Position numbers: made by a program. From IMG/VR virus record IMGVR_UViG_2534681832_000043: a stretch of 21,095 nucleotides of DNA; one strand, 5' to 3'. The stretch's first letter is position 1; every line of letters begins with the position of its first letter. This document shows, one piece after another, positions 15,001 to 18,000 of the stretch. The DNA comes from a virus (lineage: Duplodnaviria > Heunggongvirae > Uroviricota > Caudoviricetes).

Positions 15001-18000
15001 ACTCCACAAAAACCATTGATACCAAGCGCCGGAAGATGGAAAACCAGTTCAATTCGCTGAAAGCTGCTTCTGGTCGAGCTTATGATGCTTTGCGGGTTAT
15101 TTCAGCAGTTGACAGAGGAACTGCTTCTTCGTCGCAGACATTGCCGCAATCTGAGCAGGTATCACAGCCAGCAGCCAGCAGTAACTTTTCTTCACTATGG
15201 GGTGATTAATGGCTAAAGCATGGAAAGATGTTATCGCCTCTCCACAGTATCAGGCGTTAGCACCAGAACAAAAAGCGCAGGCTCAGGAGCAATACTTCAA
15301 TGAAGTCGTTGCCCCGCAAGCCGGAGAAAGTGTAGAGCAGGCTAAGCAGGCTTTTTATGCTGCCTATCCACTACCATCAACGAATGAAATAGACCGATCC
15401 CAATCAGCAACTCAAAATATTCAACATACATCATCTGATAATTCTCTTGCGTCAGGGTATGCAAAGTTAGCTACTCAGCAAAGAGAGGGGCTTGAGCGTT
15501 CAGCAGAACAGGGAGCCAGTCTTGGGGCTGCGATGCGCGATGCTATAACAGGCGAAAGCCGAATGACTCCAGAGATGGAGAGACTGCAAAATGTCGACCT
15601 TGCCCCAGAGTTAACCTCACTCAGCATGGATGCTCTAAAAGCTCGATGGTCTCAACTTTTCGGCTCTGACGCATCTCAGGAAAAGATTCTTCAGAGCATG
15701 GGAGCGAAATTAAGGCAGGATGAGAAGGGTAACACTATCGTTTCCCTGCCATCCGGTGATTATGCTCTGAACAAGCCGGGTTTATCGCCGCAAGACGTGG
15801 CATCGTTTTTGGCTAATGCGCTGGCGTTTACACCAGCTGGCAGGGCCGGAACGGTGCTGGGGGCCATAGGGAAATCAGCAGCTACAGATTTAGCACTACA
15901 GGGAGCCACCAGCCTTGCTGGTGGAGAAGATATTGATCCGTTACAAACGGTAATTTCTGCTGGCATTGGCGGCATTGGTAAGGGGCTGGAGAATACAGCG
16001 AGTGCGGTTTCGAGGGCTGTTCGTGGTGATATGGCACCGGAAGCGAAAGCCGCTGTTGATTTTGCATCGGAAAGAAACCTGCCGTTAATGACCAGTGACG
16101 TACTGAAAGATAAAAACACTGTGCAGAGTCTGGCCCAGAAAACAGGCGAAAAAATCCCTTTTTTTGGAACGGGTACGAACAGGTTGAATCAACAACAGGC
16201 ACGGGAAAATCTGGTCAGAACATATAACGATGGTCTGGGAGGCATTTCAGATAAACAGCTTTATGAATCTGCGACTAAAGGGCAGCAAAAATTCATTGAG
16301 GCCGCAGGAAAGCGATATAACCGCATAATTGACGCTATGGGGGATACCCCTGTCGATCTCTCAAACACGGTAAAAGCTATCGACAATCAGATTGCCGTGT
16401 TAAGCCGCCCGGGCAAATCTCAGGATAGAGCCGCGGTAAAAGTCTTGCAGCAATTTAAAGACGATATCACCAGCGGACCAAATGACCTGCGTCTGGCGAG
16501 AGAAAACAGAACTGACCTTCGAAAGCGGTTCATGAATTCAAACGAGACAGTTGATAAAGACACGCTCCAGAAAGCCAGCGATATTGTCTACAAGGCATAT
16601 ACGCTGGATATGAGAAGGGCAGTAGCCCAGAAACTGGGTTCAGAAGAAGCAGCCAATATGGCAAGGGTCGATCGCTCATGGTCTAAATTCAATGACATGA
16701 TGGGAAGAACGCGCGTTCAGAAGGCAATAGCCAGCGGCAAGGCCACGCCTGAGGATGTAACAAAACTCGTTTTTAGCCAAAGCTCATCAGAACGTTCTCA
16801 GCTTTACAGGCTTCTGGATGACAACGGCAGGCAGAACGCACGGGCAGCCATAATACAGAATGCTGTAGATAAGGCGACTGATTCGGCGGGGAATATCAGC
16901 GTTGAGAAGTTTATTAACACGCTACACCGGAACAGAAAGCAATCCGCAACGTTCTTTAAGGGCGTGCACGGAAAGGAACTGGACGGCATTATTAAATACC
17001 TCAACGATACCAGACAGGCGGCAAAGGTTGACGGTCAGAAATTAAACAGCCAGAAACTTTATGGCCTGCTGGTTGGTGGAGGCGCTATAAATGCGGCAGT
17101 TCTGGCGGGGATGCTGAAAACGGCTGCGTTTGTTGTTCCTGCTGCTGGTGCCGTAGGCGGAGCAGCGAAGGCATACGAAAGCCCTGTTATACGAAATGCC
17201 TTGTTACGTCTGGCAAATACGCCAAAAGGTAGCACAGCATATGACAGAGCGATCAGTACGGTCACACAATCACTGACCACAGCAGCACAAGCATCGCAAA
17301 AGGAAGCTCAATAACAGATGGCCATGGATGGTTGGTTATAATAGTAATTAGTATTTTTTTCAAATAGTTATGAACATTAACACTTGCCTTTAACATTGCC
17401 GACAAATGAGCCTGTAAATGAGCCTATATCAGATCGACTAATTGTTCGTGTATGGATCACTTTTCCGTCATTTGAGATTGCCCATGTGACAAGCGTCAGT
17501 TGACCATCTCGATAGCTTCTTCCCATCATGGCATTCGGAGACAGCGGGTAATAATCAATACCTCCACCTATACCATCTTTTGCCAAGATAAGATCCGCCT
17601 TCTCTTTACTTATTACCAAATGAAAGGTATCTGGTATAGATGATAACTTATAGTTATACCCATCTGAACTTGAGGCTTCTTGTCCTTTCAGATCACCAAT
17701 AATCCAGCATTCAGCGTTCGCTCCAAAAGAAGCAAATAATAAACCGGAGACAACCAATCGCTTCAATTGATTCACACCAACCCTCCCTTTAGCGTTGTTT
17801 AGAATGGCAATCATCATATATCCAAGACATGGCATTTGGTACATAGCTTGGGTCGGGATTTCAAATCCGCCCCCGTTGATGGGGTCGTTACAGTACGCGC
17901 ATATCCGCTTTATGTGAAACAGGAAGATTTTTCTGATATCACTGCCACAGCAAAACACCAATTTCGAGACAAGTACGCGCGCGAGGGGTATCAGTTGCAA

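What the first reader, a model, noticed from the sequence alone, without database searches (positions are those of the whole stretch)
17377..17775. AT-rich gene for a small secreted protein of unknown function, convergent with the ejection-like operon
The most plausible start is a GTG after a strong AAAGGGAGGG RBS, giving a 133-aa protein with a classical signal peptide (cleavage after ANA) and Cys residues at the mature N-terminus and at the C-terminus. It could be a periplasmic immunity, superinfection-exclusion or virulence-associated moron.
Basis: partly seen in the sequence, partly recalled or inferred. Interest (0 to 1): 0.35.

Follow-up and report, generated by a model that had tools for sequence, protein, structure and literature searches.

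The report
Exported Hex-family prophage moron protein
This is a real small gene on an E. coli mobile island that encodes an exported beta-barrel protein distantly related to phage 434 Hex, a prophage protein known genetically to keep other phages out; it is an ordinary accessory gene whose mechanism is unsolved.

Summary
Window 17377..17775 (-) is a real gene of 132 aa (not 133) that starts at the GTG behind AAAGGGAGGG. Its signal peptide is predicted to be cut after ANA, leaving Cys at mature position 2 and at the C-terminus.

It does have relatives. It matches PHROG 2651 (E 1e-22) and is about 30% identical to phage 434 Hex ("heterologous exclusion"), Sf6 gp38 and Salmonella phage Emek orf129. 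All 33 aligned members share the signal peptide, the A|xCW junction and, with one exception, the C-terminal Cys. AlphaFold gives a confident (pLDDT 93.7) small up-and-down beta-barrel, with no solved or Pfam relative.

Members always sit in slots of the kind expressed from the prophage. These are right after cI (434, Sf6), convergent right after the gp16 ejection gene (Emek, about 77 of 80 viral contigs, this window), or on the opposite strand within late operons.

The most likely function is a periplasmic superinfection-exclusion factor. That is inferred, not shown. The published RecA/repressor role of Hex fits poorly, because the active fragment in that paper begins exactly at the predicted signal-peptidase site.

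The host element is an integrase/primase island carrying P22-type ejection genes, not a complete phage. New member of a known, poorly understood family; moderate interest.

The parts
17377..17775 (-). Coding sequence of the Hex-family precursor (132 aa plus stop), starting at GTG
   Evidence: PHROG 2651 at E 1e-22. tblastn to 434 Hex, Sf6 gp38 and Emek orf129 at E 5e-15 to 1e-11. RefSeq WP_001426179.1 has the same coordinates in strain D72.
17781..17790 (-). Shine-Dalgarno sequence AAAGGGAGGG, 5 nt upstream of the GTG
   Evidence: Read from the sequence. Anti-SD duplex energy is -11.8 kcal/mol, against -3.1 or weaker for the other upstream in-frame starts.
17713..17775 (-). Signal peptide, residues 1-21 (MNQLKRLVVSGLLFASFGANA), with predicted SPase I cut after ANA
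   Evidence: Rule-based analysis: n-region charge +2, hydrophobic core, and small residues at -1 in 33/33 and at -3 in 32/33 family members. The sHex fragment of 434 Hex starts at the equivalent site. SignalP was not available.
17380..17712 (-). Mature protein, 111 aa, predicted small up-and-down beta-barrel, with Cys at mature positions 2 and 111
   Evidence: AlphaFold2 pLDDT 93.7, pTM 0.84, nine strands. Conserved Cys, G31 and W98. No solved relative.
17776..17849 (-). 5' module (RBS and probable promoter) shared with an alternative cargo gene in other E. coli
   Evidence: About 410 genomes match only from about 17770 upstream. In O111:H8 the same RBS and GTG-AAT are followed by a 116-aa membrane protein. 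A third variant breaks at about 17850. No convincing sigma-70 match was found.
15209..17314 (+). Context: gp16-type ejection (injection) protein gene, convergent, ending 62 nt from the stop of the Hex-like gene
   Evidence: PHROG 770. Annotated as an injection protein in RefSeq. Pfam Phage_P22_gp16 on the equivalent 701-aa gene in L015.

Best explanation
The gene is a self-contained accessory gene ('moron') of a mobile island.

Making the protein. It is translated from the GTG at 17775. The 21-residue signal peptide sends the precursor through the Sec pathway, and signal peptidase I cuts after ANA. The 111-residue mature protein folds in the periplasm into a small soluble beta-barrel. The two conserved cysteines, at mature position 2 and at the last residue, probably form a disulfide that staples the first strand to the last.

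Family. It is a divergent member of the phage 434 Hex / Sf6 gp38 family.

Function. The most likely job is superinfection exclusion. The island-carrying cell makes the protein constitutively, and in the periplasm it interferes with an early envelope step of an incoming phage. The leading candidate step is assembly or function of the trans-envelope DNA conduit built by P22-type ejection proteins.

Shown and inferred. Shown here: the gene, its start, its family membership, the conserved export signature, the fold class, and the prophage-moron context. Inferred: actual export, the disulfide, expression in the resting island, exclusion activity, and above all the molecular target.
For: Family membership:
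- PHROG 2651 at E 1e-22 over the full profile.
- 30-33% identity over 95-98% of the length to 434 Hex, Sf6 gp38, HK446, HK633, Sf101 and Emek orf129.
- Exhaustive HMMER finds about 40 clusters, the single-domain ones mostly 126-138 aa.

Export signature:
- All 33 aligned members have an 18-22-residue signal peptide (one has 35), with A/S/G at -1.
- The Cys at mature position 2 is invariant; 32 of 33 members also have a Cys at or near the C-terminus, and some have a second pair.

Indirect experimental support for cleavage:
- The Hex fragment recovered by Shkilnyj et al. begins at Glu43 of their 158-aa ORF (PMC3564112).
- Glu43 is exactly the residue after ANS| in ANS|ECW.

Fold: pLDDT 93.7, all-beta.

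Function:
- hex was named for heterologous exclusion of P22 by imm434 lysogens of Salmonella (PMC3564112).

Genomic slots:
- In the PRM operon after cI, the position of lambda rexAB.
- Convergent right after gene 16, the position of P22 sieA; about 77 of 80 IMG/VR loci.
- SieA itself blocks injection through gp16/gp20 (PMC10883804).
- On the opposite strand inside late operons, once beside RexAB.

Neighbourhood in E. coli:
- The same RBS module drives either this gene or a small multi-pass membrane protein.
- The adjacent hotspot holds AbiD here, and an ImmA/IrrE-family gene plus an unnamed gene in two other strains.
Against: - No experiment on this protein or any close relative exists.
- The only biochemical study of the family assigns Hex a cytoplasmic role, blocking RecA-stimulated repressor cleavage.
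- The stage at which Hex excludes P22 is not given in the text I could read.
- The family also occurs in siphovirus prophages, far from any ejection-protein gene. The link to gp16 is therefore a common slot, not a rule.
- The same Hex-like allele occurs with gp16 alleles of 72% and 99% identity, so there is no allele coupling.
- PADLOC has no match.
- No promoter or terminator was identified convincingly.
- Signal-peptide prediction was rule-based only.
Confidence: 0.5

Rival explanations
1. Repressor protection, as published for 434 Hex. The protein stays in the cytoplasm and binds a LexA-like prophage repressor, preventing RecA-stimulated autocleavage and so stabilising lysogeny.
For: - PMC3564112: deleting hex raises spontaneous induction about 30-fold, and only in recA+ cells.
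- In the same paper, fragment sHex inhibits cleavage of the 434 and P22 repressors in vitro.
- Many family members sit directly after a cI gene.
Against: - Every member carries a canonical signal peptide and conserved cysteines, which point to the periplasm, away from RecA and repressors.
- sHex starts at the predicted signal-peptidase site and ends at N103, so it is only the first half of the predicted barrel.
- sHex was given its own initiator Met and expressed without a signal peptide, and the purification used guanidine hydrochloride.
- No S24 (LexA-like) repressor domain was found in any window ORF scanned against Pfam. The same holds next to the gene in Emek-type phages.
Confidence: 0.08
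2. Host-benefit conversion factor unrelated to phages. In this reading it is a periplasmic binding or inhibitor protein, such as a lysozyme inhibitor of the PliC/MliC kind or a small-ligand binder of the lipocalin kind, that improves survival of the carrier in an animal host or under envelope stress.
For: - The prophage-moron location is equally typical of fitness factors.
- The island also carries a PerC-family regulator.
Against: - No sequence match to the MliC/PliC Pfam family or any other.
- The structural matches are generic (Foldseek finds nothing at E below 1e-3, TM 0.55 or less).
- The only genetic phenotype known for the family is phage exclusion.
- The neighbouring variable cargo here is an anti-phage gene, AbiD.
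Confidence: 0.2
3. Outer-membrane beta-barrel protein of the PagP/Lom/OmpX kind, as the annotation of the homologue in phage Huey suggests.
For: - The Huey homologue is annotated 'PagP'.
Against: - The mature protein is only 111 aa, and several predicted strands are 5-6 residues, too short to span a membrane.
- The C-terminus is Cys or polar residues, not the aromatic end typical of outer-membrane proteins.
- The conserved cysteine pair and a GRAVY of -0.22 also argue against it.
- There is no Pfam outer-membrane family hit.
Confidence: 0.04
4. A longer product is the real one: 146 aa from ATG 17817 (the RefSeq call in strain PKF11), or the 218-aa ORF from 18033.
For: - PGAP chose ATG 17817 in several genomes.
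- The frame is open back to 18033 in this window.
Against: - The anti-SD pairing is weak at the ATGs (-2.4 and -3.1 kcal/mol, against -11.8 at the GTG).
- All homologues start 18-22 residues before the cleavage site, apart from one with a 35-residue leader.
- The upstream frame is cut to 45 codons by indels in three other strains.
- The homology break with the alternative cargo falls at the GTG.
- PGAP itself uses the GTG in strain D72.
- The 146-aa form would in any case only lengthen the n-region of the same signal peptide.
Confidence: 0.08

Closest known systems
Phage 434 Hex ('heterologous exclusion'; annotated 'repressor protection protein'), Sf6 gp38 and Emek orf129 (PHROG 2651)
   Same: - Full-length sequence similarity (about 30-33% identity).
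- Same size, signal peptide, A|xCW junction and conserved Trp, and a Cys at or near the C-terminus.
- Prophage-moron location.
- Emek orf129 sits in the identical position, convergent right after the gp16 gene.
   Different: - Only about 30% identical.
- Not linked to a cI repressor, unlike 434, Sf6, HK446 and the Cronobacter prophages.
- Carried by an integrase/primase island rather than a complete phage.
- No phenotype is known for this member.
P22 SieA (superinfection exclusion A)
   Same: - Occupies the same genomic slot immediately after gene 16.
- Expressed from the prophage.
- Acts at the envelope against DNA delivery by P22-like phages, through gp16/gp20 (PMC10883804).
- It is the model for how this protein may work.
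   Different: [quoted passage not shown]
- This protein has no membrane segment after its signal peptide and is predicted to be a soluble beta-barrel.
- No shared Pfam, PHROG or NCBIfam family was found.
T4 Spackle (Sp), a periplasmic superinfection-exclusion protein that inhibits the incoming tail lysozyme (own knowledge; mentioned in PMC11436027)
   Same: A small signal-peptide-bearing periplasmic protein that stops an incoming phage at the cell-wall or periplasm stage. It is a precedent for a soluble periplasmic exclusion factor.
   Different: From memory, Spackle is helical and belongs to a lytic phage. There is no sequence or fold relation. No evidence here points to a lysozyme or transglycosylase target.
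Small periplasmic or surface beta-barrels: PliC/MliC lysozyme inhibitors, lipocalins, avidins, the NHBA C-domain
   Different: No sequence relation, none of their family motifs, and only generic structural scores.

Membership tests
Hex / Sf6 gp38 family (PHROG 2651) | Significant full-length sequence similarity to family members or the family profile | tested here: met
   PHROG 2651 at E 1.3e-22, profile positions 1-116 of 117. tblastn E 5e-15 to 1e-11 over 95-98% of the query. phmmer against 1.84 billion representatives.
Hex / Sf6 gp38 family (PHROG 2651) | N-terminal signal peptide ending small-x-small, followed by x-C-W | tested here: met
   ANA|ECW in this protein. In the 33 aligned members, -1 is A/S/G in 33/33, the Cys is invariant, and W follows it in 29/33.
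Hex / Sf6 gp38 family (PHROG 2651) | Conserved Cys at or near the C-terminus, and the conserved Gly and Trp (ETW region) | tested here: met
   C132, G31 and W98 are all present (here as VTW). These columns are invariant or at least 90% conserved.
Hex / Sf6 gp38 family (PHROG 2651) | Location in a slot of a temperate phage or prophage-derived element of the kind expressed in the lysogen | tested here: met
   Convergent after gp16, as in Emek, P0008, P0010 and about 77 of 80 IMG/VR loci. Expression itself was not tested.
Hex / Sf6 gp38 family (PHROG 2651) | Exclusion of a heterologous phage (the phenotype that named hex) | not testable with these tools
   Needs plating assays. Known only for 434 hex, as cited in PMC3564112.
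Sec/SPase I secreted protein | Positive n-region, hydrophobic h-region, small residues at -3 and -1 | tested here: met
   K5 and R6; core LVVSGLLFASF (mean Kyte-Doolittle 2.67 over the best 8 residues); A at -3 and at -1. This is rule-based. SignalP was not available and there is no experimental localisation.
Bacterial lipoprotein (SPase II) | Lipobox L-[AS]-[GA]-C, with Cys as the first mature residue | tested here: not met
   The residues before the Cys are N-A-E. Charged or polar residues precede the Cys in most members.
P22 SieA-type exclusion proteins | Inner-membrane protein with transmembrane helices | tested here: not met
   The mature part is all-beta and hydrophilic (GRAVY -0.22), with no hydrophobic helix after the signal peptide.
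Outer-membrane 8-stranded barrels (PagP, Lom, OmpX) | About 150 or more residues, membrane-spanning strands, aromatic C-terminal residue, family profile match | tested here: not met
   111 mature residues, several 5-6-residue strands, C-terminal Cys, and no Pfam match.
MliC/PliC lysozyme inhibitors | Match to the family profile and its conserved motifs | tested here: not met
Known anti-phage defence systems (PADLOC) | Match to a PADLOC model | tested here: not met
   No hit at E 0.01 or below. The neighbouring gene at 18648..19610 does match AbiD.

The most novel reading that the evidence does not exclude
The whole Hex family would be a soluble periplasmic exclusion factor that blocks the P22-type ejection-protein conduit, or another periplasm-exposed entry step. 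That would make it the first soluble periplasmic counterpart of SieA for short-tailed temperate phages.

The published RecA/repressor mechanism for Hex would then be a side effect of expressing a signal-less half-barrel in the cytoplasm.

A further twist is specific to this island. It carries its own gp14-gp7-gp20-gp16 ejection module but no head or tail genes. It may be a satellite that rides in a P22-like helper's capsid with its own ejection proteins, while its Hex-like protein shuts the door behind it.
Probability: 0.25. Interest if true: 0.6.

Novelty: new member of a known kind. Interest (0 to 1): 0.38.

Why it matters
The gene itself is an ordinary accessory gene. Its family, however, is the only named occupant of the rex-like slot of 434-immunity phages. 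It also recurs in the sieA slot of P22-like phages, and no Pfam, NCBIfam or PDB entry matched it.

Recognising that all members are built for export puts the one published mechanism (RecA/repressor) in doubt. It also points to a cheap experiment: express the gene with and without its signal peptide and plate P22-like phages.

If exclusion in the periplasm is confirmed, it would add a new protein type to the short list of factors known to block phage DNA entry.

Tried and rejected
- **Near-identity DNA search in phages:** no match.
- **Word-indexed protein search:** found only E. coli alleles, with the single sequence and also with the family profile. The family was reached through tblastn on phages and the exhaustive HMMER search.
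- **Profile libraries and solved structures:** Pfam, NCBIfam, PADLOC and PDB sequence profiles gave nothing for this protein.
- **Related loci:** The search for related loci with the whole family alignment failed for lack of a conserved stretch. A sub-alignment of Emek-type sequences worked.
- **Promoter and terminator scan:** no convincing promoter for the gene and no terminator.
- **Rfam on the conserved upstream region:** nothing.
- **Literature searches for further work on Hex, Sf6 gp38 or accession numbers:** nothing beyond PMC3564112.
- **Readings rejected:** lipoprotein (no lipobox), outer-membrane barrel, MliC/PliC membership, the 218-aa ORF, and tight co-variation of Hex-like and gp16 alleles.
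- **Not done:** dN/dS was not computed, because the E. coli alleles differ at only two or three sites. The Cys-Cys distance was not measured, because the model coordinates are not exposed.
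Full report
**1. Observation**

The minus-strand ORF at 17377..17775 is present as described. It has 133 codons including the stop, so the protein is 132 aa.

The GTG at 17775 lies 5 nt downstream of AAAGGGAGGG (17781..17790). I computed the pairing energy between the 3' end of 16S rRNA and the region upstream of each in-frame start. It is -11.8 kcal/mol for this GTG, against -2.4 and -3.1 for the ATGs at 17817 and 17814, and -3.2 or weaker for the starts further upstream.

The N-terminus, MNQLKRLVVSGLLFASFGANA|ECW, has the three regions of a Sec signal peptide, with Ala at -3 and -1. The mature protein has 111 residues, with Cys at position 2 and at the last position.

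Gene GC is 0.406, against 0.491 for the adjacent gp16-like gene and 0.476 for the whole window. The gene is convergent with that gene, and the two stops are 62 nt apart.

**2. Start codon and the long ORF**

The 218-aa ORF (17377..18033) is open only in this allele and in strain PKF11. In three other E. coli alleles, single-base indels cut the open frame upstream of the GTG from 107 to 45 codons.

RefSeq annotation is inconsistent. PGAP uses the GTG in strain D72 (WP_001426179.1) and ATG 17817 in PKF11.

Homologues begin 18-22 residues before the cleavage site, apart from one with a 35-residue leader, which matches the GTG start. About 410 E. coli genomes share the upstream region but lose similarity at about 17770, just inside the start codon. 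The upstream stretch is therefore a separate module, not coding sequence of this gene.

**3. What it is related to**

Pfam, NCBIfam and PADLOC give nothing. PHROGs gives family 2651, of unknown function, at E 1.3e-22 across the whole profile.

tblastn against phage genomes finds 16 records at 30-33% identity over 95-98% of the query. They are phage 434 and lambda imm434 (annotated 'repressor protection protein'), Sf6 gene 38, HK446, HK633, Sf101, Huey (annotated 'PagP'), Chlobot, and the Salmonella P22-like phages Emek (orf129) and ST-35.

An exhaustive HMMER search of 1.84 billion representatives finds only about 40 clusters, the single-domain ones mostly 126-138 aa. Named members come from Escherichia, Cronobacter, Serratia, Pantoea, Affinibrenneria, Rahnella and Aeromonas, and all are called 'hypothetical'.

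In a 33-sequence alignment, the Cys two residues after the predicted cleavage site and Gly31 are invariant. Trp98, Gly126 and the C-terminal Cys are at least 90% conserved. Position -1 is A/S/G in 33/33 members and position -3 is A/S/V/T in 32/33. Mature proteins carry two cysteines, or four in a sub-group.

The residue before the Cys is usually E, Q, D or N. This rules out a lipobox.

**4. Structure**

AlphaFold2 on the mature sequence, with a 33-row alignment, gives mean pLDDT 93.7 and pTM 0.84. The model has nine beta-strands and no helices.

The protein is therefore a small up-and-down barrel with no solved relative.

Its size, its short strands, its hydrophilic composition (GRAVY -0.22), its C-terminal Cys and the conserved cysteine pair argue for a soluble periplasmic barrel, not an outer-membrane one. 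In such a barrel the first and last strands are neighbours, so the two cysteines are well placed to form a closing disulfide. This is inference, because I could not read the model coordinates.

**5. Genomic context of the family**

Members always lie in prophage or prophage-derived DNA, in positions typical of genes expressed from the prophage.

(a) Directly after the cI repressor, on the same strand. This is the case in 434, Sf6, Huey and Cronobacter prophages. It is the position of rexAB in lambda. In 434 the gene is co-transcribed from PRM (PMC3564112).

(b) Convergent, immediately after the gene 16 ejection-protein gene. This is the case in Emek, in metagenomic P22-like contigs, once as a tandem pair, in a second E. 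coli allele, and in about 77 of 80 IMG/VR loci carrying the Emek-type allele. It is the position of sieA in P22, and it is the arrangement in this window.

(c) On the opposite strand inside late operons of siphovirus or lambdoid prophages, once beside rexA/rexB.

(d) In degraded prophage remnants.

The same Hex-like allele occurs with gp16 alleles of 72% and 99% identity. The slot is conserved, but there is no allele coupling.

**6. Context in this window**

The window is not a phage. In order, it carries:

- an arm-type tyrosine integrase (1..1260);
- an int-alpA RNA;
- AntA and Ash genes;
- isrK and C4 RNAs;
- a Zn-ribbon/Toprim primase-helicase (7073..9427);
- a P22-type module of gp14 (DUF2824), gp7, gp20 and gp16 (11342..17314);
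- the Hex-like gene;
- an AbiD/Abi_2 gene;
- a 151-aa ORF;
- a PerC homologue.

No capsid, portal, terminase or tail gene is present. In strain PKF11 the same island sits between yicC and dinD.

The gp20-like gene is split by a 1310-bp IS3-family element, 13351..14660.

Two variable spots flank a conserved 560-bp non-coding stretch (17776..18338). One is the Hex-like gene itself, replaced in about 410 genomes by other cargo. In O111:H8 the replacement is a 116-aa multi-pass membrane protein behind the same RBS. The other is 18339..19632. It holds AbiD here, an ImmA/IrrE-family gene plus an unnamed gene in strains D72 and F374, and about 350 bp in PKF11.

**7. What is known about the family**

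hex was named for heterologous exclusion. Salmonella lysogenic for lambda imm434 excludes P22, and hex- lysogens do not (Susskind and Botstein, as cited in PMC3564112).

Shkilnyj et al. then reported that deleting hex raises spontaneous induction 30-fold in recA+ cells. They also reported that a fragment, sHex, blocks RecA-stimulated cleavage of the 434 and P22 repressors in vitro.

They worked from a 158-aa ORF that overlaps cI. Full-length expression was toxic. The fragment recovered from an MBP fusion ran from Glu43 to Asn103, with no explanation for the cleavage.

Translating that ORF shows that Glu43 is the first residue after ANS| in ANS|ECW. This is exactly the predicted signal-peptidase site, and the equivalent of ANA|ECW here. 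Asn103 lies in the middle of the predicted barrel.

The paper does not mention a signal peptide in any section I read (abstract, introduction, results and discussion). My reading, which is inference, is that Hex is an exported protein. The cytoplasmic half-barrel used in vitro may not reflect its native role.

**8. Mechanism proposed**

The shown steps are the gene, its start, its family, the export signature, the fold class and the context. The inferred steps are export through Sec, cleavage after ANA, disulfide formation in the periplasm, expression while the island is quiescent, and exclusion of incoming phages at an envelope step.

The best candidate target is the trans-envelope conduit formed by gp7, gp20 and gp16 of P22-like phages. 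There are three reasons:

- P22 is the phage that Hex excludes.
- The gene so often replaces sieA in the same slot.
- SieA acts on gp16/gp20 (PMC10883804).

The presence of family members in siphovirus prophages means the target may be broader or different.

**9. Rivals**

- The cytoplasmic repressor-protection role conflicts with the universal export signature and with the absence of a linked repressor here.
- A host-benefit binder or inhibitor, such as a lysozyme inhibitor, fits the fold class but has no specific support.
- An outer-membrane barrel is unlikely on size, strand length and C-terminus.
- A longer translated form is unlikely for the reasons in section 2.

**10. Novelty and verdict**

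This is a divergent new member of a named but poorly understood family. The gene itself is ordinary.

The points of interest are two. The family-wide export signature conflicts with the only published mechanism. And the gene sits on an island that carries an ejection-protein module without the rest of a virion.

Interest is moderate.

Noticed in passing
window 1..21095 (whole); ejection module 11342..17314: The element has a P4-type integrase, int-alpA RNA, AntA, Ash, isrK/C4 RNAs and a primase-helicase. It also has a P22-type gp14-gp7-gp20-gp16 ejection module, but no capsid, portal, terminase or tail genes. In strain PKF11 it sits between yicC and dinD. It looks like a satellite-type island that carries its own ejection proteins. 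One literature search found no description of such an element. Its gp16-like protein is at most 66% identical to any sequenced phage's (phage N7).
   Followed up: partly
window 13351..14660: A 1310-bp IS3-family insertion sequence interrupts the gp20-like (Inj_translocase) gene. It has 25-nt terminal inverted repeats, an rve transposase and an ALIL frameshift pseudoknot. Uninterrupted copies in other strains resume at 14658, which implies a 3-bp target duplication.
   Followed up: yes
window 17770..17849, and L016 5656..6045: About 410 of 5426 complete E. coli genomes share the upstream region and RBS but carry other cargo in place of the Hex-like gene. In O111:H8 the cargo is a 116-aa multi-pass membrane protein that starts with the same GTG-AAT. 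A third variant breaks at about 17850. This looks like a cassette-exchange point.
   Followed up: partly
window 18339..19632: A second variable hotspot. It holds an AbiD/Abi_2 abortive-infection gene here (18648..19610; Pfam E 3.6e-52, PADLOC AbiD E 2.7e-57). Strains D72 and F374 have an ImmA/IrrE-family gene plus an unnamed gene instead, and PKF11 has only about 350 bp.
   Followed up: partly
window 17776..18338: A 560-bp stretch conserved in about 535 E. coli genomes whatever cargo lies on either side. No reading frame is conserved across it. It contains five copies of (C/A)AGTACGCGC, a 23-nt direct repeat (17961 and 18246) and a perfect palindrome with 11-bp arms (17992..18015). There is no Rfam match. 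It may be a regulatory region.
   Followed up: partly
window 1269..1335, 4466..4542, 4567..4654: Rfam matches above the gathering score to int-alpA RNA, the isrK Hfq-binding RNA and the C4 antisense RNA, in the early region of the island.
   Followed up: no
window 20327..20614: A PerC-family transcriptional activator gene (Pfam E 2.6e-33) at the right end of the island. It is conserved next to the variable hotspots in every related E. coli locus examined.
   Followed up: no
L003 2438..2914 (phage 434): The 'sHex' fragment in the 434 Hex paper (Glu43-Asn103 of a 158-aa ORF) starts exactly at the predicted signal-peptidase site, ANS|ECW, and ends in the middle of the predicted barrel. The sections of the paper I read do not mention a signal peptide.
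   Followed up: yes
L007 3359..4164: In one metagenomic P22-like phage the slot after gene 16 holds two tandem 128-aa genes; the first is the family member I looked up, the second I did not compare.
   Followed up: no
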